21,105 nt of DNA, taken from IMG/VR virus record IMGVR_UViG_3300002334_000208, one strand, 5' to 3'. Both the position numbers and the translations under genes were made by a program. How positions within the stretch are numbered: the stretch's first letter is position 1; the number at the start of each line of letters is the position of its first letter. The notes beneath the pieces were generated by a model. It was not told the DNA's origin. It ran no database searches and was given only the letters and a program-made list of their open reading frames with translations. Shown one piece after another: positions 3,164-19,316 of this stretch. Origin of the DNA: a virus (lineage: Duplodnaviria > Heunggongvirae > Uroviricota > Caudoviricetes).

Positions 3164-3490
3164 CTAAACCTTCTTTTTACTTTTTGCCGTGTAGAACTTG
3201 TCCTGTGTTGCATCCATTGCCACTATATGATGGTGCATGGCTTCGGTTTGCGTATTATCCAGTTCCAGTTCTTTACAATAATTTTGAACAGCGCTCCAAG
3301 GAATGGCACCATCGGTGCGCTCGCTATTCAAGTCTTTAAATGCATTGTAGAACAATCCTAAACCTAATTGCAGGTCCGGCGCGTCTTCAATGGATTTTGG
3401 GTATTTCTTACCACCAGCACGCTTTACTTGTTCTAATATGTTTCGTTCGGTCGGTCCTTGCTTTAGCGAATAAAGCAGAACCTCTGTTAG
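3164..3490 (-). CDS. Tail assembly chaperone gpT-like segment reached by -1 frameshift (gpGT fusion about 257 aa)
   Basis: The -1 frame is open from the slippery site to the stop at 3164 (LTEVLLYSLKQGPTERNILEQVKR...GLGLFYNAF...KKKV) and includes track ORF 3164..3355. Confidence 0.8.
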   Translation of the reverse strand, partial: LTEVLLYSLKQGPTERNILEQVKRAGGKKYPKSIEDAPDLQLGLGLFYNAFKDLNSERTDGAIPWSAVQNYCKELELDNTQTEAMHHHIVAMDATQDKFYTAKSKKKV

Positions 3491-3936
3491 TTTTTTGCCT
3501 CTTGCTCCAGATCATCGACGCGGAAAGTAGCAGCTTGTTCTGCTGCGTCTTTCACTGCGATAAATAGTTCTGGCAGAGCTTTGAAAGTGGCAACTACATT
3601 TTCTGGCGTGAATGAGATGTTCTTCCCATCTTTGCCTTCAATGGCTGAAACCCAGACATCTTTGTCTTCGTTTTTCTCTTCTTGAGATTTGACAGTCCAA
3701 CCAACAACAATTGATTCGGCATAGGCTTGGTACAGGATGTCCATTGCCACATCTTCGTGCATTGTGTTAGCTGCAAGGGCTCGACGATGTGGACGAGATT
3801 TTGCCTCCATCACTTTTGCATATTTCTTGTTGGCTCCACCGGCGCGCGCGATGCGAATACGGAAAGAACCATAATCCAGTTCAACTCCACCTTTTTCAAG
3901 GTCGTCGTTAGTTTGGAAGCTTGAGTACATTGACAT
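3487..3936 (-). CDS. Tail assembly chaperone gpG-like (149 aa)
   Basis: Directly after the tail tube gene; RIRIARAGGANKKY motif; ends GAG GCA AAA AAC TAA. Confidence 0.82.
   Translation of the reverse strand: MSMYSSFQTNDDLEKGGVELDYGSFRIRIARAGGANKKYAKVMEAKSRPHRRALAANTMHEDVAMDILYQAYAESIVVGWTVKSQEEKNEDKDVWVSAIEGKDGKNISFTPENVVATFKALPELFIAVKDAAEQAATFRVDDLEQEAKN
3490..3496 (-). promoter_or_regulatory. Programmed -1 frameshift slippery heptamer A AAA AAC
   Basis: XXXYYYZ heptamer in the correct phase immediately before the gpG stop; downstream -1 frame is open for 108 codons. Confidence 0.8.
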
Positions 3937-5534: not shown

Positions 5535-5562
5535 TTCGAATTCCAATCTTGTTGTAAAGGAG

Positions 5563-5681: not shown

Positions 5682-7535
5682 CTATATGGGCTTGACACTT
5701 GAAAACCGGTCAATTTGAATAAGACACTGTGTAATTGGGTCTCTTTTTGCCATCCATTGCAATTCATCTCGAATTCCAGCAGGCACATCTTGCGTTGATG
5801 CGCCTCTGAGCTCGACTAAATGGTCTGTGATAATGACGCTAGGAATCGTAAAAACGTAAACATTTCCAGATAAGTCATTGTAATTCCAAGACAAAGATAT
5901 TGTGTCGTGATTCACAAAATTATTGTATAAATCCAGTGTCTCAAAATAAGCTTCTAGCGATCCAGAAATTTCAAAACGTCCAAGTCCTACATCAATCGGA
6001 TATTTTGTTCCAACTGCAAATTGCTTTTTCGCATTTGCATCAATATCCAATACTACTTTTTCCACTGCAGTTGTCATCGGCAAACCATCTTTACTAATAT
6101 TTCCGATATTCGCCGTGCAATGAATTACATTTGTGGTTACAGATCGTAATCTATTATACGAAGATGCATTGAACTGATCCATTTGTGTCAGAGACTCCAG
6201 CACTGTACCCGACACTAAATTATCTCCATCTTTCAGCAGAATGGAATCTCTCGGTGTGACTCTTCTTCCTTCCAGGGCAACCTCGCCCATCACCATTTGT
6301 CCCGCCATCATGTGCAGCGACAATGCAGATACTCTCATGCCATCTTGCAGGCTGCTAATTCCTAAATCTTCGTACTGTTCTTCAATCGTGAATGATTTTT
6401 TTGATGCCTGTGGGTCGGTTGGATTTTTCAACACCGATCCTTTTATTGCTACAGCTCCAAGAACCGCCACACTTGGTGGGTGAGGCGTCACAGTTAGAGT
6501 GTCTGCACCAGCAGCCGTAATCGTGAAGAAACCGCGTGCAGCGGCTGCGCTGGCAACAGAAACAGTAGAAAAAACCATTGCTCCACCTGAATCCACCATT
6601 TCGGCAGCTATGGCGGTTACTAAGTTCGTCAGAAAATACAAAGTGACAACAGAGCCAGATACGGTTGCCCGGATGCCAATGTCTCCAGAGTTGTTTTTTT
6701 CATTGATCGCCGAGCAGATATTAGTAGCAGAATCAGCACTGGTTGCTCCAGTAGCAAAATCGACACCGGCAAATAACGAAATTATATCGATACCGTCAGT
6801 CATAGAGACATTATCGCCAGCAGTCACGGTGGCGCTGAATGTGATTGTTTGATTAGAAAATGTGATTGATCCGGTAGGAATATCAAGATAAATTCTCTGA
6901 CCTACAACAAACGATCCTAATTCATTATTCCCATTGCTATCAATTGTCGAATTACCACCTGTACCCAAACGAATGTCTGAACTTTGAACAACCACATCAT
7001 TTGCATCGATCAGAAACGCATAGCCATTTGTTGCCTCAATAGTGCCGGGAGACGTAGTAAAGGTGATCGTTGTATCAGTAGCACCAAAAGAAATTGTGCT
7101 GATAGCATTGTATCCATTATTGCCTTGAGTCAGAAATCCTTCCAGCTTCACGATTTGACCCACAAAGAAGTATCCAGTTACATCTGCGCCAGACACCACT
7201 ATGGTGTTATTGGCTGTCCAAGCAACGTCACCAAATTTGTCAAACGTCATTGATCTCGACCAAGTGCCTGATAAAACAGCCTCTAAGAAAGCATCGTGTG
7301 ACCCTGCACTTATTTCAAATGATTGTTGGGAATTGGCACCATGAGTCACTTCAACTATTCTGCTCACCATGCGGTCGCTATTAAGCTGCCCATTGAGTAC
7401 TGAATCTTTTTCTGTTATGAGATTGTTATGGATGAAATTTATAACTCGCGCAGAGCCATTGACTGGAGTTTGTCCCCATTCAGTTTCATCAAGGATAACA
7501 AGTTTGGAATCTTGAGGGTGGGCTATTTCGGTCAC
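5682..7535 (-). CDS. Second tail-tube-like protein (617 aa)
   Basis: GTG start after a GGAG SD. N-terminal ETEWGQTP...SDRMV...FEISAGSHDAFL and C-terminal GRFEISGSLEAYF resemble tail tube signatures (phiCbK-like by recall); long beta-rich insertion in the middle. Confidence 0.72.
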   Translation of the reverse strand: MTEIAHPQDSKLVILDETEWGQTPVNGSARVINFIHNNLITEKDSVLNGQLNSDRMVSRIVEVTHGANSQQSFEISAGSHDAFLEAVLSGTWSRSMTFDKFGDVAWTANNTIVVSGADVTGYFFVGQIVKLEGFLTQGNNGYNAISTISFGATDTTITFTTSPGTIEATNGYAFLIDANDVVVQSSDIRLGTGGNSTIDSNGNNELGSFVVGQRIYLDIPTGSITFSNQTITFSATVTAGDNVSMTDGIDIISLFAGVDFATGATSADSATNICSAINEKNNSGDIGIRATVSGSVVTLYFLTNLVTAIAAEMVDSGGAMVFSTVSVASAAAARGFFTITAAGADTLTVTPHPPSVAVLGAVAIKGSVLKNPTDPQASKKSFTIEEQYEDLGISSLQDGMRVSALSLHMMAGQMVMGEVALEGRRVTPRDSILLKDGDNLVSGTVLESLTQMDQFNASSYNRLRSVTTNVIHCTANIGNISKDGLPMTTAVEKVVLDIDANAKKQFAVGTKYPIDVGLGRFEISGSLEAYFETLDLYNNFVNHDTISLSWNYNDLSGNVYVFTIPSVIITDHLVELRGASTQDVPAGIRDELQWMAKRDPITQCLIQIDRFSSVKPI

Positions 7536-7537
7536 GC

Positions 7538-7957
7538 TTAAACTCCTTTAGTATCGATCAAATAACTGATATCTAAAGACAGCGAATACCGCCCATTTTT
7601 CAAAAGCATATTTTCATAATTTGGTTCGCCCATGACAACACGTCCGCCTGTCACAGGATACTCTTTTTCTGCGAAGTAGTTTCCTAGAAATTCAGCAACA
7701 GCATCGCGCTCCGCTGTAGCTGTGTCTTTTGCAGCTGACACTTCTACTTGGAAACGCCCATGAGATCGACGTGGCTTTACAGAGCCAATGCCCGTTCTCA
7801 TCGAATTTCCTGGATACATTTGCGGTGCAACTTCCAAGGCTTCATTTGTTTCATCTCGGTCGTCGTTTTCCCATCTTATTTCAACAGCCGGATACGATGC
7901 TGTGAGCTGTGCCAGCAACCGTGTCTCTAATGCTCGTCTAACTTCTAAGTGGCTCAT
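7538..7957 (-). CDS. Tail terminator-like protein (139 aa; start MSHLEV at 7957)
   Basis: IRWEN...HGRFQVEV pattern and position before the tail tube genes; TAATG overlap with the upstream gene supports the 7957 start. Confidence 0.7.
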   Translation of the reverse strand: MSHLEVRRALETRLLAQLTASYPAVEIRWENDDRDETNEALEVAPQMYPGNSMRTGIGSVKPRRSHGRFQVEVSAAKDTATAERDAVAEFLGNYFAEKEYPVTGGRVVMGEPNYENMLLKNGRYSLSLDISYLIDTKGV

Positions 7958-8331
7958 TATCTTTTTCTCAAATGTAGCATAGCCAAGCCTTCGCCGGGTA
8001 CGCCTTTTGCTTTGACAATATCCCAAACAACGCCTTTTGCTGTCACGGTATCATTGTCGTTTGGTGTGAATGTTTGGTCTTTAAGAGGGAACAGGCATTT
8101 GATATCTGTGCGCCCATTTATGCTTTCATCCTTTTCTTGCTCGGACGCGGTATAGTCCGGCAGAGATGCCAATGAAATGACATGATCAACCACTGTCTTT
8201 GCTGTGTTCGCAGACGTAGCCGGATCATAAGCTGAGTCACCTTGTTCGTGATATGTGATTTGTTCTGATAAGTCGTCTGTGATCTCGAAAGCAGTTACGA
8301 CGAGACCGGCAACTAAATCTTTAAGAGCCAT
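7957..8331 (-). CDS. Head closure / head-tail joining protein (124 aa)
   Basis: YDPATS and WDIV motifs, size and synteny between adaptor and terminator. Confidence 0.65.
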   Translation of the reverse strand: MALKDLVAGLVVTAFEITDDLSEQITYHEQGDSAYDPATSANTAKTVVDHVISLASLPDYTASEQEKDESINGRTDIKCLFPLKDQTFTPNDNDTVTAKGVVWDIVKAKGVPGEGLAMLHLRKR

Positions 8332-8333
8332 GT

Positions 8334-8855
8334 TTAACTCCTTACAATTTTGCCGAACGAACTGCCATTTGCGTTTTTGACACTTCCAAGGTCTTCAATT
8401 AACAGGAACACATCATTTGGAATGGTAATGGCGGTGTATCCTGTAGTGAACGTAATTTCGATTACATCCACGACCAATTTTTCGATGCCTGCAGAATCAA
8501 GAGGCTCGCCAAGATCACGCGCCAGAAGAAACCTTGTCAGTTCCATGATCGCGTATTGCAGTCGGATCGGGATTGTTGTATCCGTGATCAGAATATTTTC
8601 ATGATCATAGGCATAAGACCGAGGCCAAGCCAGGATATATGTCTCGTTCAGTTTTGTTCCTTCGAACGCCATACGGTATTCGATATAGCGGGTAGCCCAC
8701 ACAAGAACTCGCTCTTTTTGATCGTCTGACAATGCATCCCAGACAAGAAAAGCATTAGCGTTCGCTTCAATATAGTCGCTGGCAGCAGCAAGCGTAACGT
8801 AGCCGTTAGCTCCCGCAACTCCTGATCCATCTTCAATTACATAACTGAATGCCAT
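8334..8855 (-). CDS. Head-tail adaptor, DnaT-like family (173 aa)
   Basis: IEDGSGVAGANGYVT and LAWPRS...IP..LQYA motifs recalled for this adaptor family. Confidence 0.8.
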   Translation of the reverse strand: MAFSYVIEDGSGVAGANGYVTLAAASDYIEANANAFLVWDALSDDQKERVLVWATRYIEYRMAFEGTKLNETYILAWPRSYAYDHENILITDTTIPIRLQYAIMELTRFLLARDLGEPLDSAGIEKLVVDVIEITFTTGYTAITIPNDVFLLIEDLGSVKNANGSSFGKIVRS

Positions 8856-8882: not shown

Positions 8883-8917
8883 ATTCTACCACAGAGACAT
8901 GGTTAACGCTACATTTA
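8883..8917 (-). promoter_or_regulatory. Promoter candidate for head-tail genes: TAAA-N7-TTAAC plus extended -10 TGgTAGAAT
   Basis: Read directly; shares GTTAACCATRTCTC with the 10173-10186 site. Confidence 0.5.
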
Positions 8918-9616
8918 TTTGAGTTTGGAAAATGCGGTAACCCACTCGCGCGCATGCTCTGATCGAACCACATCCTCCGGTAGGAACTCAACAATGTCGG
9001 CGTCTATGTCAAACTTTTCAATAATCTTCAACACATCTTCCAGACCTGAATCATTTATATCAATTTGTGAGGGATCGCCAGTCACAACATATGTGGTGTT
9101 CTCGCCTTTTCTTGTCAAGAATAATCTCAGATCGGAAAAGGAACAATTCTGTGCTTCATCCAAGATGACGAAAGCATCCCTGAATGTGCGTCCGCGCATG
9201 TGCTCAAATGACAGGAATTCAATTTCTTTTGTCATCAGCATGCGCTGCAGCTCGTTGGTGCTGACTTCATCTTTGAACGCATCCATGAGTGGGACCAACC
9301 ATGGTGCCAATTTCTGTTCCAGCTTGCCTGGGAGAAAACCCTGTGCATGCCGTGGGTCGGAAACAGTAGGTCTGGCGATGAGAATTTTGGAGGTCTGGCG
9401 TGCTTTCAATTTTTGAATAGCGATCCGAGCAGACAGCCATGTCTTGCCGGTGCCAGCTTCGCCTACTGCAAAAACTTGATCGCAATTCTGCAGGCTATCT
9501 ATGAGATCGCGCTGCCGGTCATTTCTTGGGATTATGGGAGGTGCTTGATGTGCTTTTTTCGCAGCTCTTCGCTGTTGACGTTTTCGGGCCTTATTACTAA
9601 TTGATTGCTCAGACAA
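8915..9616 (-). CDS. phoH: PhoH-like ATPase (233 aa)
   Basis: Walker A GEAGTGKT, GFLPG, MRGRTF, ILDEAQN and TGDPSQID motifs; TTG start after an AGGAG SD. Confidence 0.95.
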   Translation of the reverse strand: MSEQSISNKARKRQQRRAAKKAHQAPPIIPRNDRQRDLIDSLQNCDQVFAVGEAGTGKTWLSARIAIQKLKARQTSKILIARPTVSDPRHAQGFLPGKLEQKLAPWLVPLMDAFKDEVSTNELQRMLMTKEIEFLSFEHMRGRTFRDAFVILDEAQNCSFSDLRLFLTRKGENTTYVVTGDPSQIDINDSGLEDVLKIIEKFDIDADIVEFLPEDVVRSEHAREWVTAFSKLK

Positions 9617-10211: not shown

Positions 10212-10811
10212 TTATACAATCGCGATGACTGTCGTATAGCTTATGTCCAACAGTGCGGAGAAACTGGAAGCATCACCATTGCCAGTATCGATTGTTGATG
10301 GTGTAAAATATTCCAGCGTTCCACCACCATCGTTTGTGGCTCTGAGTCTGAACTGGGCATCGGCTGGAGAAGCCTGCCCTTGTCCAAATTCCATACTGAT
10401 GAAACCTTCGCCATTTGATGCTATTTCCACCTGTCTGAGCGTGTTCGGAGTAGCAACCCAGGTGCTTCCACTATCTACACTGGATTCTACCCATATTAGC
10501 AATTCAGAAGCCTGTCCGCCGCCTGCTCTTTGAAGATGCAGGGATAATAGAGACACAGCGGTAGATAATGCAACTTTCAGTGTCACAACGCCATTGACTA
10601 CAAGCATATCGTCGTTTTCGACAGAGCCAAAGTCAATTGTCACACAGGACGCTGAATCTCCCGAAATAAAAGTTGGTATCGTTGTCCCGGCAGACTCGCT
10701 GTGCGCTGCTACGTTTTTCGTGAACTCAGTGATTAACGTGATAAAATTATCGTTAATTTTACCTGCTGCAACTCCCCAAGTTGTTGAGGATAGGATTGTT
10801 GAAATGCTCAT
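10212..10811 (-). CDS. Putative virion structural/fibre protein (199 aa)
   Basis: N-terminal KINDNF motif often seen at the start of virion fibre proteins; beta-rich C-terminus. Confidence 0.55.
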   Translation of the reverse strand: MSISTILSSTTWGVAAGKINDNFITLITEFTKNVAAHSESAGTTIPTFISGDSASCVTIDFGSVENDDMLVVNGVVTLKVALSTAVSLLSLHLQRAGGGQASELLIWVESSVDSGSTWVATPNTLRQVEIASNGEGFISMEFGQGQASPADAQFRLRATNDGGGTLEYFTPSTIDTGNGDASSFSALLDISYTTVIAIV

Positions 10812-10828: not shown

Positions 10829-12775
10829 TTAAGCAGTTTTTGTTATATGCTCGGCAATCTCAGTTGGAGTTAATGCCCGATCCACTAATGTAGCCACACC
10901 AATTCGACCTAGTATGCCAGCTCCACCACTATTGCTGAGGTCGCCTAAATACGATCTAGTGTGCCATGCAGTGGGGTCAGCCACTGACGTGTTCTCATCT
11001 ATCTCAACACCATCCACATATTCTTTCATAGTTGTAGATGCCGCATCATATGTCACAGCAAAATGATACCATGTGTCTATTGCAGGGGCTGGTGATGCCG
11101 ATGCCACTTGATCGAAGGCACCATTGTGTGCAGCCTGCCAAGCATTTGACGGAACCCAAAGAAGGTGCGAGTGGGTTCCTACAGGAGCATAGTATGCAGA
11201 CCATACATTCATATTGCCAGCCAATGAATCAAATTTTACCCACACTAATTTTGAATAACTGCTGGCAATTAAATCAGCAGTACCATCTAATTCAACACTA
11301 TCATCCGCTGCCGGTACTGATATAACATTTTTACCAACATCAGAATCAAAAACAATTGCTGCTGAGTTCACGAAGGTGACAGTCGCCGATCCAACCAAAT
11401 CATCTGAGCCTACAGACACGTCAATGTGATTAGTGATATTTGCCGCAAAAGTAAATCCGAGTGTTGCGGTCGCTTCTATGTTGCTCGCCACACTTGCTCC
11501 AATCGCATTTATTGCAGATATTCTGTATTGGTAGGAAGTCGCGGCGGCTAGTCCAGTGTCATTGTGAGATGTAACAGCACCTATTCCAGAAGCAACCACA
11601 GAAAAATTACCCCCTGTAAACTTTCTTTCTATCACATAATCTGTGATAGTTGACTCTCCGTCAAACACAGGAGCTGTCCACGCCAAAGCCACAGTTGTTG
11701 CTGCCGGTGTTGCATCAAAAGTTATCACTTTATTTGGCACCGCCGGGCTTGCCGGAATACTTCCATTGTTGCCTCGGGCACTTTCCCAGCTATCAAAATA
11801 TCTACTGCCTAATTTTCTCAGAGATTCAGAATCGAAATGAAGATTGTCTCCTTGTAAAGTGAGATTGGCGGTATCCACATAAGCACAATTTACAAAATTG
11901 TCTGGTATCGCAGCCATGGCATCATCCATCTCTTGTCGATCTGAATTTATTATAAACTCGTCACAGAAACCTCCAGCTACAAATGGCCCAGTTACGTCTA
12001 CAAGCATTTGATCAATCATAGCATACAATAAATTAGGATATGTGACAGGTATGCCTACATCAGACTCGCCTTGCTGCCAGAGTGTTCCTCCCATTAGGGC
12101 GTTTGGTACTAGACTCTTTGCCAAAATAATTCTAGCAACGGCATCAGAATAAAGCGAGTCTACCGGATTCCAAAAATCATTAGAGAAACCTGATCCAGAT
12201 TTTCCATGTGGTACTAAAATTAATGTTGCATTAGGGTACCTTCTCATGAAAGCTATCGCAAATTGTAAAGCAAACCCCATGTCTCCAGGCGTTTCATCCA
12301 CGTGATCGAGAGGTACCGTAGCTGCGACTATTTCTCCAGATTGATTTAATTGCATTACACCATCTGGATATGCCTGCCCACTATCAAACGTATCAGAGCC
12401 TACAGCATTTGACTGACCAAAAACTCCGACAATTGCAGGTCCAGTGATTTCTGCCGGGAACCCTCTTTGTGCCACCGGTACAGAATCAATTGAGAAATGT
12501 AGTTTAACATCTGAAATGGTGATTGTGCCCGAAGGCTCACCATCGGCAAGGATAACGCTGACTGCGCTCCCCGCGCGCGGTCCTACATATACTGCTAAAT
12601 TTGGTGCCACGTAAGTATCATCAGTAGTGGCATCAGTACCATCAACTCTGTAATGAAATCCTTGTTTAGAGATCATACGCACAGTAGCAGAATAATTATA
12701 CGCTGTCGCACTCTCTGCTGTAGCAGCAGCAGCTTCCAACTCTTGCGATGATATTTCGTAGAATGATTCAGACAT
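10829..12775 (-). CDS. Virion protein: shared N-module + SGNH/SASA (DUF303-like) acetylesterase + FN3 + LamG-like domain (648 aa)
   Basis: GQSN, WQQGESD and DNLHF catalytic motifs; FN3 pattern (VALAWTAP...ITDYVIE...YQYRISAINAIG); LamG pattern (WYHFAVTYD...YVDG). Confidence 0.85.
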   Translation of the reverse strand: MSESFYEISSQELEAAAATAESATAYNYSATVRMISKQGFHYRVDGTDATTDDTYVAPNLAVYVGPRAGSAVSVILADGEPSGTITISDVKLHFSIDSVPVAQRGFPAEITGPAIVGVFGQSNAVGSDTFDSGQAYPDGVMQLNQSGEIVAATVPLDHVDETPGDMGFALQFAIAFMRRYPNATLILVPHGKSGSGFSNDFWNPVDSLYSDAVARIILAKSLVPNALMGGTLWQQGESDVGIPVTYPNLLYAMIDQMLVDVTGPFVAGGFCDEFIINSDRQEMDDAMAAIPDNFVNCAYVDTANLTLQGDNLHFDSESLRKLGSRYFDSWESARGNNGSIPASPAVPNKVITFDATPAATTVALAWTAPVFDGESTITDYVIERKFTGGNFSVVASGIGAVTSHNDTGLAAATSYQYRISAINAIGASVASNIEATATLGFTFAANITNHIDVSVGSDDLVGSATVTFVNSAAIVFDSDVGKNVISVPAADDSVELDGTADLIASSYSKLVWVKFDSLAGNMNVWSAYYAPVGTHSHLLWVPSNAWQAAHNGAFDQVASASPAPAIDTWYHFAVTYDAASTTMKEYVDGVEIDENTSVADPTAWHTRSYLGDLSNSGGAGILGRIGVATLVDRALTPTEIAEHITKTA

Positions 12776-12777
12776 TT

Positions 12778-14244
12778 TTATTCCTTACCTGCTTTTTCTG
12801 ATAACCATGTTATCAGTAATGTATCTTCTGCTGCTGTTAATTCTTCTGTTATCACTATTTGATTTGTCAGCCCAGAAAACCTCAAACTATCAGAAGCCGC
12901 TCCCCATCCTGAAAAAGATAAAATATCATTTGTCATATCTAATCCTTTTATGGTTATTACGTGAGGTGTTCCGTCTGATGCTTCGGTGTGTAATTGTTGT
13001 CTCGTATGCGGCGACACAGCTACACCATCGACGAAAGTTCCACGAGTTGCAGCCGGTGAATTTATATCTGCACTTATATCTCCAGAATCAAATCTCCCAG
13101 CGTATGGAGCAGACGTGCCTTCAAATCCTCCAGAAGAAAACAGTACAGAATCATCATCTGACGTTGTGCCTGCCCAATAGAAATCTAAATCGCTAACATT
13201 GGCATTCTCATTTAAAAATCCGATAGCATAGCCATCATTTGTTCCATCAGTATTAATTCCATATATGCCATTTACTATGCCGAGTAAACCACGATATTCT
13301 GCAGTTGATTGTGACATGTGCGCGCCTATCAGCGGACGTTCATATGCGTAATCTATTTCCCATTCAGTAACCCCGGAAAATGCACTAGATATTATCAATG
13401 AAGGATGGGATAGAATGAGTCTCTGATCTATCTCAAACCATTCCCCAATGGTCGATTCTCGTGGCACAATATCAGTCCATGTACCATGATATGTCTGCAA
13501 TGAAGTGGACGTAGAACCACTGACTCTTCTAGCTCTCATGTTTCTTTTATTTATTGTGTTTAGAGGAATTCCCTGCTGTATTCCGGCTAAATTAGCGGTT
13601 GCTGTAAACACATAATTACCATCCACAACGGCTCCCACACTCATATTACTCAGAGCATATGGATTCCAACCATTTGGTATCAATATGCCTCCGCCTGCAT
13701 CATAAGTTCCTTCTGAGAAATTAGGATTCTCCAATATATTAGATTGTTTCGCAATGAATTCATCTGGAGACATGTCACGAATAACGGCCTTATCTAATAT
13801 AGTATAAACTGAATCTAAATGTGCATTGACCGGATCAACAGCAAAGGCATCCTTGTACATTTTTGTCAAGTCAGACAGGTCCCATATGTGTCTCAATTTG
13901 CTGCCCAGCATGAAAGGGTGCCATTTAACATCCGGTGTAGGATTAATTGTGACTGCACCTTTTTGACTGTAAAGCCTTATTGAAGACAAGAATACATCAC
14001 CGGACGTTTCTCCTGAGGCAAGCAGCACGCTTACTAGCGTATCTTTAGGTGGATTGATTAATATTGGATCGTTGGCATCCACCAGAGTATCAGACGTTGT
14101 GGCAACTGTCCCTATAGCATAATGAAATGATTTTGTAGAGACTATTCGAACCAAAGCACCATATGAATAAGCGTCAGCATTGCTAACCACATCTGGGATA
14201 ACACTGACAGATTGAGAAGATATTGTGTGAAAGGCTTCTGCCAT
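12778..14244 (-). CDS. Virion protein: shared N-module + beta-rich, possibly carbohydrate-binding domains (488 aa)
   Basis: N-terminus homologous to neighbours; ILENPNFSEG...PNGW suggests a CBM-like domain; LRHIWDLSDL and QIVIT ends are typical of fibre lectin domains. Confidence 0.65.
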   Translation of the reverse strand: MAEAFHTISSQSVSVIPDVVSNADAYSYGALVRIVSTKSFHYAIGTVATTSDTLVDANDPILINPPKDTLVSVLLASGETSGDVFLSSIRLYSQKGAVTINPTPDVKWHPFMLGSKLRHIWDLSDLTKMYKDAFAVDPVNAHLDSVYTILDKAVIRDMSPDEFIAKQSNILENPNFSEGTYDAGGGILIPNGWNPYALSNMSVGAVVDGNYVFTATANLAGIQQGIPLNTINKRNMRARRVSGSTSTSLQTYHGTWTDIVPRESTIGEWFEIDQRLILSHPSLIISSAFSGVTEWEIDYAYERPLIGAHMSQSTAEYRGLLGIVNGIYGINTDGTNDGYAIGFLNENANVSDLDFYWAGTTSDDDSVLFSSGGFEGTSAPYAGRFDSGDISADINSPAATRGTFVDGVAVSPHTRQQLHTEASDGTPHVITIKGLDMTNDILSFSGWGAASDSLRFSGLTNQIVITEELTAAEDTLLITWLSEKAGKE

Positions 14245-14256
14245 AATTTTTCTTTC

Positions 14257-16449
14257 TTAGCTAACAAATACTGGTGTGCACACTAATTTGAATGTATCAG
14301 TTCTTGTGCCGGAGGTGTTGTAGATATAAAAATCAGATATACCCGTTTGTCTTATAAATGGTCTGTCAATTATAGCACGAGAAAACAGTCGAGTAAACTG
14401 TCCCCCTTGTACAGTATGCTGATGGTGATGATAATATGCGTTGCCGTACCCTTCGCCGCTTATCGTTGCATTTATCATGCTATTTTTTGTTGTATTGGTA
14501 AAACTTCCCCAAGTCGATCCATTATAAGTCGTGAGTAATCCGCCTCTTGTGGCAAAATCTCCCAGACCTATTCCCACAACATAACAAGTCGTCCCATTTA
14601 CTGGCGAAGGCACATCTGCGCTGTCGCTGAAAGCATAATCAACAGTATGTGAAACTGTGCTGGTTGCATCAGTGCTCACAACTTTTACATCCCATTCCCA
14701 GTCCCTATAGCCATTTACTTGCGGCTTCATGAGCTGAATGTATCTACCTATGGTCGTGTTGTATGTTGCTTCAACAGTCAACGGTCTCTTGTTTAAAGAG
14801 TCCATTCGTTCAACAATAATTTGTCCAATATTCACAGTACCTGTGCATTGAATTAAAGACAAAGCTATAGAGGCGTGGTGCCCATTACCGGTATACATTA
14901 TCATTTCATGTATAGCATAATCTCCACCCGTTGACTCATAAGGTAAATTGTATGCCAGATCACCTTGTAAAAGACGATACGAATTTATGTACGAACTAGC
15001 CGTCCCATCTGTATTCCCAGTTTGCGTGATCAGTCCTACTTCCAGCCCATGATTCCTATTTCCAGGGCCTCCGTTGAGCACCATCTCCGTTCCAATTTTG
15101 TAGCGAATTTTTACTCTGTATCTTGTGAACGGATTGACAATGAACGTCTCTGTCTGATATCGAGTTAAATTCACACTGCTTCTATATGCCGTGGCAGTCA
15201 TTAGAATAGAGTGTGCTGATTCATTTAAAGTTTCGCCATCGTCAAACTCACAAGTATCACCAGACGCAGCAACAAATGCTCCATTGTTAACATTTGTGAA
15301 CGCAGAATCATAAATAAGATTTGCCGCGCCAATCGCCGACCATGGCACTAATTGTACGCCACTTTCTACGCACACCCGGCACAGTTCTTCAAGATGGGCT
15401 GCATGAATATACGGTATTCCCTCGGCATCACCTTCGGCAGCTGTCTGTGGAGTGTAATGTGCATAGATAATTGCTGTTTTCTTATGTGATCCACACCCTC
15501 GAACAAAAGCTAGGAGTCTTTGAAAGGCCGCATCATTATTGCTTGGGTCTGCCGGTATCGCAGACCAGTGTTGTGTAAACTCACTTTCCTGATCGGTTAT
15601 GTACAAATGATTTCCGCTGACTCCAATATCCCCATTGATTGATCTCACCTTATCATACAATGAATAGTATGCGTTATCACTATCTGTGTTTCTCGCACCT
15701 CCACGGTAGACAGCACCATTAATTTTGTAATTAGAATATTTCGGGTACGTCAGAGTTCCGGCAACAAAATCATTCCCATTCCAAACCAATTCACCAGTCA
15801 GGAGCTGGACTATTTGTAGATTTTCGGCTGCTGCATCAGCTGCCATTACGTCTTCATCAGCCGATAGATTTAAATTTGGATGATTGCATATTTCCCAACC
15901 ATAATCTTCTATCAGACTGCGCATAGCATCTGCTGTCACCCACGGTCGCCCAGCACCATCTTCGTTGTCCACATCTTCTACTTCAAGAGACAGTGATGCA
16001 GAGAAGCCATGCTTTGCTAAAATTGGCGCAGCTATCTCCCAATTATTGTAATATCCATCATCAAATATCAATACCATCTGAGTTGGTACCAGGCGCGTGG
16101 CTGCAATAACTTGTTCTATAGCACTGGTGTCAGTTACAGCGATTTCAGAAGAGCTGCGGTCGCCCGGATACTTATTGATGGAAGACACATTGATGGTACC
16201 AGCTGATTGCCCAGCAGCAAGGATCAAGCTTACCGGTACCCCTTTAGATGGCGCAACCTCCACAGAGCCTCCAGCATTCACCAAAGTGGAAGAGATCGTC
16301 GCGTCTGATCCATCGATTGTAAAGTGAAATGCTTTTGGTGACGTTAACCGGACCATGGTCGCGAAAGTATAAGCCACCGCTTTGTCTTCCACCATAGGTG
16401 TTAGATCAACGGTCTGCGTAGATGTGACGTAGAATGATTCAGATAACAT
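14257..16449 (-). CDS. Virion protein: shared N-module + NodB/CE4 polysaccharide deacetylase-like + CBM-like domains (730 aa)
   Basis: LIFDDG...APILAKHGF...GWEICNH pattern, followed by a jelly-roll-like region. Confidence 0.8.
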   Translation of the reverse strand: MLSESFYVTSTQTVDLTPMVEDKAVAYTFATMVRLTSPKAFHFTIDGSDATISSTLVNAGGSVEVAPSKGVPVSLILAAGQSAGTINVSSINKYPGDRSSSEIAVTDTSAIEQVIAATRLVPTQMVLIFDDGYYNNWEIAAPILAKHGFSASLSLEVEDVDNEDGAGRPWVTADAMRSLIEDYGWEICNHPNLNLSADEDVMAADAAAENLQIVQLLTGELVWNGNDFVAGTLTYPKYSNYKINGAVYRGGARNTDSDNAYYSLYDKVRSINGDIGVSGNHLYITDQESEFTQHWSAIPADPSNNDAAFQRLLAFVRGCGSHKKTAIIYAHYTPQTAAEGDAEGIPYIHAAHLEELCRVCVESGVQLVPWSAIGAANLIYDSAFTNVNNGAFVAASGDTCEFDDGETLNESAHSILMTATAYRSSVNLTRYQTETFIVNPFTRYRVKIRYKIGTEMVLNGGPGNRNHGLEVGLITQTGNTDGTASSYINSYRLLQGDLAYNLPYESTGGDYAIHEMIMYTGNGHHASIALSLIQCTGTVNIGQIIVERMDSLNKRPLTVEATYNTTIGRYIQLMKPQVNGYRDWEWDVKVVSTDATSTVSHTVDYAFSDSADVPSPVNGTTCYVVGIGLGDFATRGGLLTTYNGSTWGSFTNTTKNSMINATISGEGYGNAYYHHHQHTVQGGQFTRLFSRAIIDRPFIRQTGISDFYIYNTSGTRTDTFKLVCTPVFVS

Positions 16450-16465: not shown

Positions 16466-16492
16466 AAAAAGGCCGGAACTAATGTCCGGCCT
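16466..16492 (-). terminator. Rho-independent terminator
   Basis: AGGCCGGA-7 nt-TCCGGCCT followed by TTTT on the minus strand. Confidence 0.8.
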
Positions 16493-16518: not shown

Positions 16519-16935
16519 TTACTTTTTGTCTTTGCCTTTACCAGTATTTGCAACTGGAATTTGGGCTTCGGCTTTTTTAACAACCTTCTCTGTTTGTGCA
16601 ACAGCAGGCGCTTCACTTGGTTTTGATCCAGCAGCTTTTTTGATTTCAACTACATCAGGAGAAAGACCTTCGTTTTCTGTAGCTTCGTCCTCTGCAACTT
16701 TCGCAGCATCTGCAGCTTCGTCAGCAGGAGCCTTTGCAGCTTCCTTTGCAGCTTCCTTTGCAGCTTTAACTACATCGTCGGTTGCTGGTTTGAAAATAGG
16801 TTGTACCGGAGAATTTGAGGATGTTTTCCAGCCTAGAAGCTGTACAGCATCAAAAGCATTTGGAACACTCATTGCGTGAACTTTGCCTTTAAGGTCGGTT
16901 ACGTTGAGGGTGATTTCATCTTTAGCAGTTGGCAT
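16519..16935 (-). CDS. Hypothetical protein with Ala/Lys/Glu-rich low-complexity C-terminus (138 aa)
   Basis: Short folded N-terminus followed by KAAKEAAKEAAKAPADEAA repeats. Confidence 0.7.
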   Translation of the reverse strand: MPTAKDEITLNVTDLKGKVHAMSVPNAFDAVQLLGWKTSSNSPVQPIFKPATDDVVKAAKEAAKEAAKAPADEAADAAKVAEDEATENEGLSPDVVEIKKAAGSKPSEAPAVAQTEKVVKKAEAQIPVANTGKGKDKK

Positions 16936-16984
16936 ATTGAATCCAATCGTGTGTGTCGAGTATTATCGAGTTGAAGAAACGAAC

Positions 16985-17008
16985 AGGCCGGGAGATAAGT
17001 CCCGACCT
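16985..17008 (-). terminator. Probable terminator after decoration gene
   Basis: AGGTCGGGA-6 nt-TCCCGGCCT followed by GTTCGTTTCTT. Confidence 0.6.
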
Positions 17009-17024
17009 ATTATGTTAGAGAAGC

Positions 17025-17444
17025 TTATGCAGCGCCTGTGATAGGAGCCATGTATGCCCAGAAACCAGCAGCGGATGTGCCATCAGCTTTAGTTGATTTA
17101 ACGCGGATTGCCGTAGCAGCACCGAGTTGTTCACGAGTTAGCGTATATGTGAATGCGCCAACAGCAGTAACCACTTTTGTTACCTGTGCAACGGTGTCAT
17201 CAAAAGCACCAGTGACTGATGTCTCGATTGTGAGTGTTGCGCCAGAGTCAACAATTGCGTCAATAGCACCGAAAACTGTGAAGTCCAGAGCTACAGCGTT
17301 TTCGCTGTTATTCCAATATGCAGAAAGCAGATCGAAAGAGATTACAGCAGAAGTAACATCGTTGTTAGCTGCTGGGGGAGTTGTGCCAGTGGCAAGAAAC
17401 ACTGTTTCGGCGTCAATTGAGTGGCGGACAGATGATGCAGTCAT
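17025..17444 (-). CDS. Minor capsid/decoration protein (139 aa)
   Basis: Small Thr/Ala/Val-rich beta protein directly after the major capsid gene. Confidence 0.7.
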   Translation of the reverse strand: MTASSVRHSIDAETVFLATGTTPPAANNDVTSAVISFDLLSAYWNNSENAVALDFTVFGAIDAIVDSGATLTIETSVTGAFDDTVAQVTKVVTAVGAFTYTLTREQLGAATAIRVKSTKADGTSAAGFWAYMAPITGAA

Positions 17445-17522: not shown

Positions 17523-18452
17523 TTAAGTTGTAACCACTGCGTTAGTGATACCCCAGACGCGAGCAGCTGCGCGACCGTGCATGATTGCCATGCTTACCAG
17601 CCATTCAACGCGAGTACGCATTACCGGAGCTGACTGTAACTGACCAAGGTCCTCAACTTCCATGACACCGTTTTGGATGCCTTGAACTTTGTTGGTACCG
17701 AGGGCGATAACATATAGAGATGTTGATGTAGACCCACCGGCAGGACCAACTTCATTAAAGTCGATGATTTTTGTACCAGTGTCGTCGTAATCAACGTCGA
17801 GGAAAGGGATGCCGTTGTAGAAGTAAACACGGTCACCGAATTCGTTTTTCTCCCAAGTGATGTCCCCACCAACGTTTGCGCGAGCAGCAGCTGAGAGTTT
17901 ACGGAACATATCTTTTGAACCAACGATGTGCGTTGCGCCATCAACTTCGTCGATAGCTTTATCGATAGCTTCAAGAGAGAGTGGAGAGTTGGCAGAAGGT
18001 GCGCCAAGGTTCGCAGGGATTAACTGGTTACCAGTGATGCGGACACGCAGACCATCAAATTCACGAGGCTCAAGAGCCGAGTTACCATTGATCAGTTTGC
18101 CAGTTATGTGCAGGGCCATTGATTTGATTTTCATTGCTTCCTGAGAAGAACGAATTTGCTCACCACGAGTTTTGATAAGCGCGCGATCAACGTCGAGATC
18201 ACCACCCGCAATACGTAGGACTTCTACGTCTGGGTTGATAATGCCAGTTGATTCTGTGTATGATTCGTTGAAACCACGGAAAGCAACACCAGGAAGGGTA
18301 CCTTCAACGTTGTACGAAAGAGACGAACCAGGAATGTCTTCGAACGGCATAGCAGCCAGAAGAGATGAGCTTGCTGCGAACATTTCGATTACAGCAGAGC
18401 GTTTGATGTCGCCTGAATTTTGTTTTGCAGCTTCCATTAGGGTAAGTGGCAT
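17523..18452 (-). CDS. Major capsid protein, HK97 fold (309 aa)
   Basis: LTLMEAAK, LPGVAFRGFNE, IAGGDLDVD, EFDGL and RTRVEW motifs resembling YuA/phiCbK-type capsids (recalled). Confidence 0.93.
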   Translation of the reverse strand: MPLTLMEAAKQNSGDIKRSAVIEMFAASSSLLAAMPFEDIPGSSLSYNVEGTLPGVAFRGFNESYTESTGIINPDVEVLRIAGGDLDVDRALIKTRGEQIRSSQEAMKIKSMALHITGKLINGNSALEPREFDGLRVRITGNQLIPANLGAPSANSPLSLEAIDKAIDEVDGATHIVGSKDMFRKLSAAARANVGGDITWEKNEFGDRVYFYNGIPFLDVDYDDTGTKIIDFNEVGPAGGSTSTSLYVIALGTNKVQGIQNGVMEVEDLGQLQSAPVMRTRVEWLVSMAIMHGRAAARVWGITNAVVTT

Positions 18453-18512: not shown

Positions 18513-19316
18513 TTACGCCGCGCTTAGTTTGTTTGCATAATCCAACCGCACATGTGCTGGTTGTTTATTGAATTCTTCTTCGCTCATACCTTTAGGGTAT
18601 TTGCTTTTGCCATCTGAACCCTCTGCATCGCCACCTGTGTTAGGTGCGAAAAAGTGTGGTGCAGTTTTCTGCAGTCCCTGAACAAATTCAGCGCCGGACA
18701 TTGGTGATACACCATCAGTTCCATAAATCACTGTTGTTCCATCGGCTTTCATAGGAACTACTTCGTCTTCGGCATTCACTCTGTAAACAGCGCGTGCGCG
18801 CGTCAGAATGTCTGGTAGTGCTTGGACGTTCACGCCGGACTCTGGGTCAAGCACTGCGTCAGAAATATATTTGTCAACGATAGTAGTGTTGAATTTTTCA
18901 GTGCTGGCAGCCAGCGCCTGAGTCAATGCAACATTCTTGTCCGTAACTTCTGTCAGTTGAGCAGTGTGCTCTTCTGTCATTTGTGCAACACGAGAAACCA
19001 GACCAGCTTCAATAGCCGCTTCGATGTCTTTTGGTGCTTTCAACTTACCATTTTCGACATCTTGGGCTACTATGCGTAGGGCATCGAGATCGGTGGCAAA
19101 TTGATCAGCATCTTCACCAACGATTTTCTTGTATCCTTCAATCACCAGTTTCAGAGCATCGCGATCTTTTGCAATCGCAGTATTGTTATCTCTGAACTCA
19201 GTCAGTTTTTCGTTGGAAACAACGTTGATAGTGAATTTTCCATCATCGGTTTTTTTGATGATGTCTTCAAATCCCGCAGGGATTTGAGCTTCGTCGGCAA
19301 ATGTAATTACGGGCAT
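18513..19316 (-). CDS. Capsid scaffolding protein (267 aa)
   Basis: EFRDNN and coiled-coil region, APHFF...GG C-terminus; upstream of capsid; GGGAG SD. Confidence 0.8.
   Translation of the reverse strand: MPVITFADEAQIPAGFEDIIKKTDDGKFTINVVSNEKLTEFRDNNTAIAKDRDALKLVIEGYKKIVGEDADQFATDLDALRIVAQDVENGKLKAPKDIEAAIEAGLVSRVAQMTEEHTAQLTEVTDKNVALTQALAASTEKFNTTIVDKYISDAVLDPESGVNVQALPDILTRARAVYRVNAEDEVVPMKADGTTVIYGTDGVSPMSGAEFVQGLQKTAPHFFAPNTGGDAEGSDGKSKYPKGMSEEEFNKQPAHVRLDYANKLSAA

What the first reader, a model, noticed from the sequence alone, without database searches (positions are those of the whole stretch)
10829..16449. Modular display system: one ~92-aa anchor module fused to three different glycan-active cargos next to capsid genes
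Seen: three consecutive proteins begin with a homologous module (MSESFYEISSQ...VRMISKQGFHYRVDGTDATTDDTYV...VSVILADGEPSGTITISDV; MAEAFHTISSQ...VRIVSTKSFHYAIGTVATTSDTLV...VSVLLASGETSGDVFLSSI; MLSESFYVTSTQ...VRLTSPKAFHFTIDGSDATISSTLV...VSLILAAGQSAGTINVSSI) and then diverge completely: SGNH acetylesterase+FN3+LamG, beta-rich binding domains, and CE4 deacetylase+CBM-like. They follow the capsid/decoration genes rather than the baseplate genes. Inference: a common docking domain mounts interchangeable O- and N-deacetylases and lectins on the head (or neck) to bind or strip acetylated EPS/capsule/holdfast. This would be a natural plug-and-play capsid display cassette.
Basis: partly seen in the sequence, partly recalled or inferred. 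Interest (0 to 1): 0.85.

Follow-up and report, generated by a model that had tools for sequence, protein, structure and literature searches.

The report
Shared anchor on three phage enzymes
Three neighbouring genes of an uncultured long-tailed phage start with the same small 92-residue domain and then carry a sugar esterase, a lectin-like domain and a deacetylase-like domain. In related phages that small domain is a separate protein always paired with a neck-fibre "bead" protein, so it is probably a docking piece that hangs sugar-acting tools on the virus particle.

Summary
ORFs 14257-16449, 12778-14244 and 10829-12775 (minus strand) share residues 1 to about 93 (38-42% identity, BLASTP E 2e-16 to 7e-10) and nothing after that.

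**Cargo**
- One ORF carries SASA/SGNH esterase + FN3 + LamG.
- One carries a ConA-like beta domain.
- One carries a CE4-like unit plus a CBM-like unit.

**The module**
- It is a confident small jelly roll (pLDDT 94) with no Pfam or PDB family.
- A profile search of 1.84 billion proteins found it elsewhere only as free-standing 88-103 aa proteins (phrog_12998, which includes CcrRogue gp073).
- In 8 of 8 loci with readable downstream DNA, the next gene is a Gp80-type bead protein. In solved phages (GP4, A1002, Bas63) these beads are strung on a rope that hangs from the neck or tail.
- This phage has three modules, no bead gene, and cargo fused directly to the module.
- Relatives of the CE4-like cargo carry other N-termini, including the tail-fibre domain Mtd_N.

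**Reading**
- I read the module as a virion-docking adaptor (about 0.75).
- The site is unresolved: neck collar about 0.45, capsid shell about 0.25.
- Binding is not shown.

It is a new variant of a known principle (conserved N-terminal anchor, swappable distal domains). This scan has noted head-module esterases in other phages, but not this module.

The parts
16165..16449 (-). Module copy 1 (P0001 aa 1-95)
   Evidence: Alignments. The profile hit has E 2.4e-40 and 1.1e-27 with the 24-sequence profile.
15325..16083 (-). CE4/NodB-like domain of P0001 (aa ~123-375)
   Evidence: PF01522 scores 15.5 bits, below the cut-off. Six of the seven homologues P0033-P0039 pass it. The motifs FDDGY, GWEICNHP, YRGGAR and IIYAH are present, and the second metal-binding His is absent. 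The model matches PdaC 6h8l_B at E 1.7e-5.
14260..15282 (-). C-terminal beta-sandwich (CBM-like) region of P0001 (aa ~390-730)
   Evidence: The model has pLDDT 70-90 in this region. It matches CBM4, CBM6 and CBM16 at E 1e-7 to 1e-5. Homologues show weak DUF2793-like stretches.
13966..14244 (-). Module copy 2 (P0002 aa 1-93)
   Evidence: (E 8.8e-40).
12781..13965 (-). P0002 cargo, probably a ConA-like/LamG-like beta domain
   Evidence: No Pfam family and no sequence homologues. Atlas features score 0.93-0.95 against viral Laminin_G_3 clusters, and TM is 0.5-0.54 to viral beta-sandwich proteins. This is a lead only.
12494..12775 (-). Module copy 3 (P0003 aa 1-94). This copy was the one modelled.
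   Evidence: AlphaFold2 model with pLDDT 94.4 and pTM 0.83: a compact 7-8-strand jelly roll.
11792..12421 (-). SASA/SGNH acetylesterase domain of P0003 (aa 119-328)
   Evidence: PF03629 E 1.2e-22. GQSN at residue 120 and DNLH at 310.
11480..11704 (-). Fibronectin type III domain of P0003
   Evidence: PF00041 E 7e-8.
10853..11308 (-). Laminin_G_3 / ConA-like lectin domain of P0003
   Evidence: PF13385 E 1.1e-17.
16470..16492 (-). Terminator-like hairpin (8 bp, 6 GC, then TTTTGG) between the P0005 gene and the first module gene
   Evidence: This is a consensus match only; attenuation is inferred.
16519..16935 (-). P0005: a conserved ~40-aa N-terminal domain plus a charged low-complexity tail. 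It is the core gene that precedes the module in relatives.
   Evidence: Alignments A6 and A9. The HMM hit has E 1.7e-24, and the same domain is present in the relatives.
17025..17444 (-). P0004, a homologue of the phiCbK-type minor capsid protein
   Evidence: A BLAST chain links P0004 to the L011 148-aa protein (7e-15) and that protein to CcrRogue gp071 (4e-8). The phiCbK gp69 orthologue was found in virions (PMC3556154).
17523..18452 (-). Major capsid protein (phrog_212, PF20911 GP7 type)
   Evidence: It is 69% identical to the MCP of Microcystis phage Mwe-JY26.
10212..10811 (-). P0006, a 199-aa beta-rich protein of unknown role that closes the cassette
   Evidence: Only weak matches to PHROGs of unknown function. 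It has no likeness to the module or to Gp80.

Best explanation
The ~92-residue N-terminal jelly roll is a virion-docking adaptor of a previously unnamed family (relatives fall in phrog_12998).

In related phiCbK-type siphophages it is a separate 90-100 aa protein. It opens an optional appendage cassette and is always followed, tightly abutting or overlapping, by a Gp80-type 'bead' protein. In this phage the adaptor gene has been triplicated. Each copy is fused through a 10-30-residue linker directly to a different glycan-directed cargo:
- an SGNH/SASA O-acetylesterase with FN3 and LamG;
- a ConA-like lectin-type domain;
- a CE4-like deacetylase with CBM-like sandwiches.

I think the docking site is most likely a low-copy site at the head-tail junction. 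That would be a collar-type ring on the connector, as for the collar proteins that carry Gp80-type whiskers in Bas63 and GP4, or the collar-domain-plus-whisker protein gp40 of XM1. The three paralogues would share or divide these sites, so the particle carries esterase, lectin and deacetylase-like heads that bind and de-acetylate the host's surface polysaccharide before the tail tip engages.

**Shown:** homology and boundaries of the module, its fold class, the cargo families, the module-bead gene pairing in relatives, and the swapping of the CE4-like cargo onto other N-termini.

**Inferred:** docking itself, the site, the stoichiometry and the enzymatic activity.

My confidence that the module is a virion anchor of some kind is about 0.75. 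The confidence figure given for this explanation is for the neck/collar version.
For: 1. Similarity among the three proteins is restricted to residues 1-93. This is the classic pattern of a conserved N-terminal anchor with variable distal parts.
2. A profile of the three modules searched against 1.84 billion representatives returns, besides themselves, only free-standing 88-103 aa proteins. The few long hits are repeat artefacts. These proteins match phrog_12998, and CcrRogue gp073 matches it at 6.5e-56.
3. Synteny: scaffold, MCP, minor capsid protein, P0005-like, module is conserved in CcrRogue and in loci L007, L011, L013 and L015, with MCPs 55-67% identical to the window's.
4. In 8 of 8 independent loci with readable downstream DNA, the next gene is Gp80-like (PF23140 type). 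This holds even in L008, where the pair sits upstream of the scaffold gene. The own record has three modules and no Gp80.
5. Gp80-type beads are strung on ropes hanging from an Ig-like collar on the connector (Bas63, Sf14, GP4) or from the nozzle (A1002). XM1 gp40 fuses a collar domain to a whisker (PMC12609058; PMC13730344).
6. The CE4-like cargo is a mobile unit, 37-44% identical over ~610 aa in seven proteins with different N-termini. One of these is Mtd_N (E 1e-13), the N-terminal domain of a tail-fibre protein.
7. The module and what follows it are optional. They are absent from vB_EliS-L02 and Mwe-JY26, which keep the core genes.
8. Hints of low copy number: a terminator-like hairpin at 16470-16492, and the phiCbK homologue is not among the eight virion proteins seen in 2012.
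Against: - No binding has been shown.
- The module is a jelly roll, not the Ig-like fold described for the Bas63 and GP4 collars. Fold searches return only generic jelly rolls and cupins: best Z 9.1 to a designed protein, viral turret and spike domains at Z 6.6-7.8.
- The three fused modules do not hit phrog_12998 directly at E <= 0.01.
- They have lost part of the family's GETDG-x-W motif, so the surface that serves the bead partner may have changed.
- Three paralogues competing for 12-15 neck sites is less natural than sharing hundreds of capsid sites.
- Gene pairing with beads shows a functional link, not which part of the assembly the module is.
- The record is an 11%-complete fragment, so a bead or rope gene could lie elsewhere.
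Confidence: 0.45

Rival explanations
1. Capsid-shell display. The module binds the MCP lattice at hexamer centres, quasi-threefold sites or vertices, as the anchors of T4 Hoc, T5 pb10 or the HFTV1 turret base do. The three cargos would form a mosaic coat of enzymes and lectins on the prolate head.
For: - The genes lie directly after MCP, minor capsid protein and P0005.
- The module-bead pair travels with scaffold-MCP rather than with the connector genes in L008.
- HFTV1 displays a CBM plus a deacetylase-like head on a 114-aa turret base on every hexamer (PMC12494034). That chain appears among the fold hits at Z 6.7.
- Many capsid sites would accommodate three paralogues.
- phrog_240 (the Gp80-like family) is labelled 'head protein'.
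Against: - Z 6.7 is within the noise of generic jelly rolls.
- All solved Gp80-type assemblies I read about hang from the neck or tail.
- A terminator-like hairpin precedes the cassette.
- The phiCbK head was described as two main proteins, and gp71 was not detected.
- The slot already holds a minor capsid (cement-type) protein, P0004.
Confidence: 0.25
2. The module is not an anchor but a small carbohydrate- or ligand-binding jelly roll (CBM- or cupin-like) shared by three glycan-active proteins. Attachment to the virion, if any, would be through another part.
For: - The fold class is jelly roll / double-stranded beta-helix. CBM36 and many cupins are among the weak Foldseek hits.
- Free-standing members conserve His41 and a GETDG motif that could bind a metal or ligand.
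- The cargos are all glycan-directed.
Against: - The putative ligand residues are not kept in the fused copies: GEPSG, GETSG, GQSAG.
- The cargos already carry their own LamG or CBM-like domains.
- The CE4-like cargo occurs on the tail-fibre N-terminal domain Mtd_N in another protein. This suggests that this position holds the virion-specific part.
- The free-standing form is a fixed member of structural gene blocks and is paired with a fibre bead.
- No CBM or cupin family reaches significance.
Confidence: 0.12
3. The proteins are side fibres docked on the tail (tube, terminator or tip), or soluble enzymes released at lysis. Under this reading the position next to the capsid genes is incidental.
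For: - Homologues of the CE4-like cargo sit on tail-fibre-type N-termini and fold-match phage tail fibres and tailspikes: SFP21A Gp09 and CBA120 TSP4.
- A1002 hangs Gp80-type chains from the nozzle.
- Soluble phage depolymerases are known (own knowledge).
Against:
- The cassette lies upstream of the connector genes.
- A conserved structured N-terminal domain shared by three proteins has no obvious role in soluble enzymes.
- No signal peptides or lysis genes are nearby (sequence reading).
Confidence: 0.13

Closest known systems
Collar-whisker / chain-like fibre systems: GP4 fibre-tail adaptor + rope + gp80; Bas63 and Sf14 collar + whisker; A1002 nozzle-rope + gp40/gp41; XM1 gp40
   Same: - Free-standing relatives of the module are always encoded next to a PF23140 Gp80-type bead.
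- In these systems a small beta-sandwich protein docks an appendage at the head-tail junction.
- XM1 gp40 is likewise an N-terminal docking domain fused to the projecting part (PMC12609058).
   Different: - This phage has no bead or rope gene in the record.
- The module is a jelly roll, not the Ig-like collar fold described. No sequence or fold match to those entries was seen.
- The cargo here is enzymes and lectins rather than beads or coiled coils.
- Three paralogues are used.
phrog_12998 (CcrRogue gp073 and, by colinearity, phiCbK gp71): ~93-aa proteins of unknown function
   Same: - Homologous by profile and BLASTP: A3 HMM against gp073 gives 5e-20, and P0003 against gp073 gives 3.7e-6.
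- Same place in the gene order, after MCP, minor capsid protein and the P0005-like gene.
- Same predicted fold as many ~90-110 aa phage proteins in BFVD, with TM 0.7-0.8.
   Different: - Members are free-standing and paired with a bead gene. Here the domain is fused, triplicated and unpaired.
- The fused copies do not reach phrog_12998 at E <= 0.01.
- They have a degraded GETDG-x-W motif.
Anchor-plus-cargo capsid decoration: T4 Hoc, T5 pb10, HFTV1 turret (gp30 base + gp31 CBM/deacetylase-like head)
   Same: - A small docking part presents glycan-binding or glycan-modifying domains outside the particle.
- HFTV1 shows that a deacetylase-like domain plus a CBM can be mounted on a tailed-virus head (PMC12494034).
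- pb10 fused to foreign proteins keeps its capsid binding, so it works as an anchor-plus-display module (PMC10766600 abstract; the N-terminal position of its anchor is my own knowledge).
   Different: - No homology to these anchors was detected.
- The site here is unknown and more likely the neck.
- HFTV1 uses two separate proteins.
Branched or multiple tailspike systems with a conserved N-terminal anchor (T7-like gp17 N-terminus, CBA120 TSP1-4, multi-depolymerase Klebsiella phages). From my own knowledge, not tested here.
   Same: One virion-specific N-terminal domain is combined with interchangeable enzymatic receptor-binding domains, and several different ones sit on one particle.
   Different: Those anchors are tail or baseplate parts encoded in the tail module. 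This module is encoded in the head-to-connector slot and belongs to a different, uncharacterised family.
Neck passage structure of lactococcal siphophages, carrying carbohydrate-binding modules. From my own knowledge, not tested here.
   Same: An optional neck appendage of a siphophage, with glycan-binding domains, encoded between the capsid and tail genes.
   Different: No sequence relation was tested or seen. No enzymatic cargo is known to me there.

Membership tests
phrog_12998 (free-standing ~93-aa phage protein, function unknown) | Direct profile match to the PHROG model | tested here: not met
   hmmscan of the full P0001-P0003 against PHROGs at E <= 0.01 gives no family.
phrog_12998 (free-standing ~93-aa phage protein, function unknown) | Homology to bona fide members | tested here: met
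   The profile of the three modules finds members at E 1.5e-9 and weaker. Those proteins hit phrog_12998. The A3 profile hits CcrRogue gp073 at 5e-20. BLASTP of P0003 against gp073 gives 3.7e-6.
phrog_12998 (free-standing ~93-aa phage protein, function unknown) | Stand-alone gene immediately followed by a Gp80-type gene | tested here: not met
   This holds in 8 of 8 relatives. In the window the domain is fused to cargo, and no PF23140 match exists in the record.
Collar / fibre-tail adaptor of Gp80-type chain-like fibres (GP4, Bas63, Sf14) | Ig-like collar fold forming a 12- or 15-fold ring on the connector | tested here: inconclusive
   The module model is a jelly roll. None of these entries appears among the listed fold matches, but absence from the lists does not exclude similarity. 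Ring formation is not testable with these tools.
Collar / fibre-tail adaptor of Gp80-type chain-like fibres (GP4, Bas63, Sf14) | Genetic association with Gp80-type beads | tested here: met
   This is met for the free-standing relatives only. It is not met for the window itself.
Capsid decoration anchors (Hoc, pb10, HFTV1 turret base) | Homology or a specific fold match to a known capsid-binding domain | tested here: inconclusive
   No Pfam or PDB sequence match. The HFTV1 turret chain 8qpg_TD scores Z 6.7, rmsd 4.5 over 86 residues, within the range of unrelated jelly rolls.
Capsid decoration anchors (Hoc, pb10, HFTV1 turret base) | Binding to the assembled MCP lattice | not testable with these tools
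   This needs capsids or a model of a large assembly.
SASA / SGNH carbohydrate esterase (PF03629), P0003 | Profile match above the curated cut-off, plus the GQSN Ser block and the DxxH block | tested here: met
   81.1 bits against a cut-off of 24.8. GQSN at residue 120 and DNLH at 310. Activity was not tested.
CE4 / NodB polysaccharide deacetylase (PF01522), P0001 | Profile match above the curated cut-off | tested here: not met
   15.5 bits against a cut-off of 23.1. However, homologues 37-44% identical over ~610 aa score up to 39 bits.
CE4 / NodB polysaccharide deacetylase (PF01522), P0001 | Catalytic and metal motifs: TFDD, H(S/T)xxH, RxPY, LxH (own knowledge of the family) | tested here: inconclusive
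   IFDDG, one His in GWEICNHP (the second His is absent across the whole subfamily), YRGGAR and IIYAH are present. The model matches PdaC at E 1.7e-5, TM 0.57 by target.

The most novel reading that the evidence does not exclude
The three paralogous modules co-assemble into one hetero-oligomeric docking ring. An example would be a 15-fold collar built as five copies of each paralogue, echoing the pentadecameric collars of GP4, A1002 and A-1(L). Every particle would then carry a fixed, ordered set of esterase, lectin and deacetylase heads. By extension, phrog_12998 would be the missing docking subunit of the phiCbK-type appendage, possibly the head filament, whose composition has been unknown for decades.
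Probability: 0.1. Interest if true: 0.75.

Novelty: new variant of a known kind. Interest (0 to 1): 0.55.

Why it matters
If the module is a docking domain, three things follow.
- It gives a first functional handle on a conserved protein of unknown function in phiCbK-type phages, and on its obligate pairing with bead-type fibre proteins.
- It shows a natural case in which bead-on-rope appendages have been replaced by directly fused enzymes.
- It offers a compact (92-residue, well-folding) candidate tag for mounting foreign domains on this class of virions.

It also adds to a growing picture that phages carry polysaccharide esterases and deacetylases away from the tail tip. Examples are the HFTV1 turrets, and the Hoc- or Soc-linked esterases noted by this scan in other genomes.

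The principle of a conserved N-terminal anchor with swappable distal domains is textbook for tailspikes, so this is an extension and not a new kind of system.

Tried and rejected
- **Complex prediction.** A job with MCP + P0004 + the P0005 N-terminal domain, with the module as partner, gave no verdict (score 0.00). It counts neither for nor against binding.
- **Searches of the phage collection.** DNA and tblastn searches with the cassette and with a module found nothing.
- **Pattern scans.** Scans of viral contigs with the fused-module alignment, and of metagenome contigs with both alignments, found no relatives. A3 was too divergent for the scan.
- **Search for other fusions.**
  - The word-based search for longer proteins carrying the module returned only P0003 (weak evidence, because long candidates were crowded out).
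  - The four long hits of the profile search are repeat proteins with multi-stretch scores. I dismissed them as spurious.
- **Other proteins in the window.** P0004 and P0006 are not module or Gp80 homologues.
- **Nearest isolates.**
  - Mwe-JY26 has no module, and no shared N-termini in its equivalent slot.
  - vB_EliS-L02 has none either.
- **L019 neighbour.** The 94-aa protein upstream of the CE4 homologue in L019 hits the module profile only at E 0.017. I did not count it.
- **Fold searches.** PDB by Foldseek, VIA wide and VIA second look, plus AFDB clusters and the ESM Atlas, gave only generic jelly rolls or cupins and unnamed ~90-aa viral proteins.
- **Other look-ups.**
  - Exact look-up of P0003 on other contigs found nothing on record.
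- **Literature.** No atomic structure of a phiCbK-type head or neck was found in the paper library.

Full report
**Anatomy**

The window is almost all of a 22.5-kb IMG/VR fragment, judged 11% complete. All its genes are on the minus strand. Read in the direction of transcription, the order is:

| Gene | Coordinates |
|---|---|
| tRNA region | upstream of the scaffold gene |
| Scaffold | 18513-19316 |
| Major capsid protein (phrog_212 / PF20911) | 17523-18452 |
| P0004, 139 aa | 17025-17444 |
| P0005, 138 aa | 16519-16935 |
| P0001 (first ORF in question) | 14257-16449 |
| P0002 (second ORF in question) | 12778-14244 |
| P0003 (third ORF in question) | 10829-12775 |
| P0006, 199 aa | 10212-10811 |
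| PhoH | 8915-9616 |
| Head-tail adaptor Ad1 | 8334-8855 |
| Head closure Hc1 | 7957-8331 |
| Tail terminator | 7538-8026 |
| Two tail-tube paralogues | 5682-7535 and 3978-5546 |
| Tail assembly chaperone | 3487-3936 |
| Tape measure | 237-2729 |

**The observation**

- P0001 (730 aa), P0002 (488 aa) and P0003 (648 aa) align over their first 92-95 residues, with 25 invariant columns and 38-42% identity.
- BLASTP between the full proteins finds only residues 1-93 (E 1.9e-16, 6.9e-10, 1.6e-11). No other segment scores below E 0.1.
- The record contains exactly three copies. This is far beyond chance.
- Each module starts at the annotated ATG, with a conserved M-x-E-S/A-F motif. A 10-30-residue linker follows it.

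**The cargos**

- **P0003** matches SASA (PF03629, E 1.2e-22), fn3 and Laminin_G_3. It keeps the GQSN and DxxH blocks.
- **P0001** scores below the CE4 cut-off on its own (15.5 against 23.1 bits).
  - Residues ~124-729 form a unit that is 37-44% identical over about 610 residues to seven metagenomic proteins. Six of the seven pass the PF01522 cut-off.
  - The subfamily keeps FDDGY, one His in GWEICNHP, YRGGAR and IIYAH. It lacks the second metal-binding His, so activity is uncertain.
  - An AlphaFold2 model (pLDDT 63 overall, 70-90 in the C-terminal half) matches the PdaC deacetylase and CBM4/6/16 modules.
- **P0002** cargo has no sequence relatives. It resembles viral ConA-like/LamG proteins by language-model features and by the Atlas model, which is a lead only.

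**What the module is**

- With a 24-sequence alignment it folds as a compact 7-8-strand jelly roll (pLDDT 94.4, pTM 0.83).
- No Pfam family and no PDB sequence match it.
- Fold searches give only generic jelly rolls. The best is Z 9.1 to a designed double-stranded beta-helix. Cupins, PirA, the PM2 P1 spike, STIV A223, the HFTV1 turret and Ena pilins score Z 6.5-8.
- The viral model library and the ESM Atlas hold many unnamed 90-110 aa phage proteins with the same fold, at TM 0.7-0.8.
- A profile of the three modules, scored against 1.84 billion representative proteins, found 28 proteins at E <= 0.001: the three themselves, 21 free-standing proteins of 88-103 aa, and four long repeat proteins that I judge spurious.
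- The free-standing proteins match phrog_12998, a family of unknown function. Its members include CcrRogue gp073 (6.5e-56) and, by colinearity, phiCbK gp71.
- No other fusion of the module was found.

**Context of the free-standing relatives**

- In CcrRogue and five other loci (L007, L008, L011, L013, L015) the MCP is 55-67% identical to the window's; the context of L009 is not known.
- The shared order is scaffold, MCP, a ~146-aa protein, a small protein, then the module.
- The ~146-aa protein is homologous to P0004 and to CcrRogue gp071. Its phiCbK orthologue, gp69, is the minor capsid protein found in virions (PMC3556154).
- The small protein shares a ~40-residue N-terminal domain with P0005.
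- The decisive regularity came from HMM scans of all fetched loci. In 8 of 8 independent loci where DNA downstream of the module is readable, the very next gene is Gp80-like. It often abuts or overlaps the module gene.
  - This family is PF23140, 'Podophage GP4 fiber I protein gp80', equivalent to phrog_240.
  - It occurs either as a single domain or as a tandem 266-aa double domain.
  - The pairing holds even in L008, where the pair lies upstream of the scaffold gene.
- The window's record has three modules and no Gp80 match.
- Two relatives that keep the core genes, vB_EliS-L02 and Microcystis phage Mwe-JY26 (MCP 69% identical), lack the module and carry other genes, or none, in the slot. 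The module therefore opens an optional, variable appendage cassette.

**What is known about the partner**

Gp80-type proteins form dimers threaded like beads on a 'rope'.
- In GP4 the rope interlocks with an Ig-like, 15-fold fibre-tail adaptor around the neck.
- In Bas63 and Sf14 the rope is the N-terminal extension of an Ig-like collar protein. That protein forms a 12-fold ring on the adaptor and head-completion proteins.
- In A1002 the rope comes from the nozzle.
- XM1 gp40 has an N-terminal collar domain fused to a C-terminal whisker (PMC12609058; PMC13730344).

In none of these is the assembly anchored on the capsid shell.

**Inference**

Three points make a virion-docking role for the module the best reading (about 0.75):
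- the pattern of a conserved N-terminus with a variable remainder;
- the existence of the module as a fixed member of a structural cassette;
- the CE4-like cargo elsewhere carries other N-termini, including Mtd_N (E 1e-13), the N-terminal domain of the Bordetella phage tail-fibre protein.

For the site, three points favour a low-copy position at the head-tail junction (about 0.45) over lattice-wide capsid display (about 0.25):
- the strict pairing with beads;
- the terminator-like hairpin at 16470-16492 just upstream of the first module gene;
- the absence of the phiCbK homologue from the eight virion proteins detected in 2012.

Capsid display remains a serious rival. HFTV1 mounts a CBM plus a deacetylase-like head on a small turret base on every hexamer (PMC12494034). 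Three paralogues would also share many sites more easily than few. A further rival is that the jelly roll is itself a glycan- or ligand-binding domain. I rate it lower because the family's candidate ligand residues (GETDG) are not kept in the fused copies, and the cargos carry their own lectin or CBM domains.

**Limits**

- No interaction was demonstrated. The single complex-prediction job gave no verdict.
- The record is a fragment.
- No atomic structure of a phiCbK-type head or neck was found in the library.
- The host is unknown. The nearest capsid relative infects Microcystis, and most of the next-closest listed relatives infect Alphaproteobacteria.

**Comparison and novelty**

Conserved N-terminal anchors with interchangeable enzymatic distal domains are standard for tailspikes (own knowledge). 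Glycan-active domains on heads or necks have precedents: HFTV1, and collar-whisker systems. This scan's unchecked notes also describe Hoc- or Soc-linked esterases and a bead-rope-anchor-esterase block in other genomes.

What is new here:
- the anchor family itself, which was previously uncharacterised;
- its triplication;
- its direct fusion to three different cargos in place of the bead-type partner;
- the 8-of-8 module-bead gene pairing, which gives phrog_12998 a testable role.

I class it as a new variant of a known kind, of moderate interest.

Noticed in passing
L006 (CcrRogue) 11914-15247 and 15754-24171; by colinearity phiCbK gp71-gp76: In phiCbK-type phages the module gene (gp073) and a Gp80-type bead gene (gp074) sit a few genes upstream of the 2,800-aa glycine-rich protein proposed in 2012 as the head filament. 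A bead-on-rope construction for that filament, or for an unseen neck fibre, has not been considered in the papers I read.
   Followed up: partly
L011 10292-11092, L013 10295-11095, L015 3970-4770: Here the Gp80-type protein is a 266-aa tandem of two Gp80 domains, each matching the single-domain form at E 1e-29 to 1e-36. This is a covalent version of the bead dimer seen in solved fibres.
   Followed up: partly
L017 (Erythrobacter phage vB_EliS-L02) 8852-9256: An unannotated 135-codon ORF between the minor capsid gene and the adaptor gene encodes a P0005-like protein (HMM E 1.4e-11) with an acidic tail. The public record lists no gene there.
   Followed up: partly
window 16519-16935; L010 15501-16049 and 21900-22112; L013 18120-18973; L015 11762-12178; L008 8356-8598: The ~40-residue N-terminal domain of P0005 (V-x-D-x-x-G ... 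G-W) recurs in several paralogues per phage, once as a tandem. Where I read the sequences it is joined to charged low-complexity tails. Its function is unknown.
   Followed up: no
L019 7723-13630: In an unrelated podophage-like contig, a homologue of the CE4-like cargo (P0037) also lies between the MCP gene and two SU10-type adaptor genes. It is preceded by a 94-aa beta-rich protein that matches the module profile only weakly (E 0.017).
   Followed up: partly
window 16982-17011 and 16470-16492 (minus strand): Two GC-rich terminator-like hairpins bracket the P0005 gene, one after P0004 and one just before the first module gene. This suggests stepwise attenuation after the capsid genes.
   Followed up: no
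window 8915-9616: A PhoH-like gene sits inside the structural operon, between the appendage cassette and the head-tail adaptor. This placement is conserved in Mwe-JY26 and in loci L008 and L013.
   Followed up: no
window 3978-5546 and 5682-7535: There are two long tail-tube paralogues (PF18906, 522 and 617 aa) in tandem. Mwe-JY26 has one tube gene annotated in the region I read, 37% identical to the 617-aa copy.
   Followed up: no
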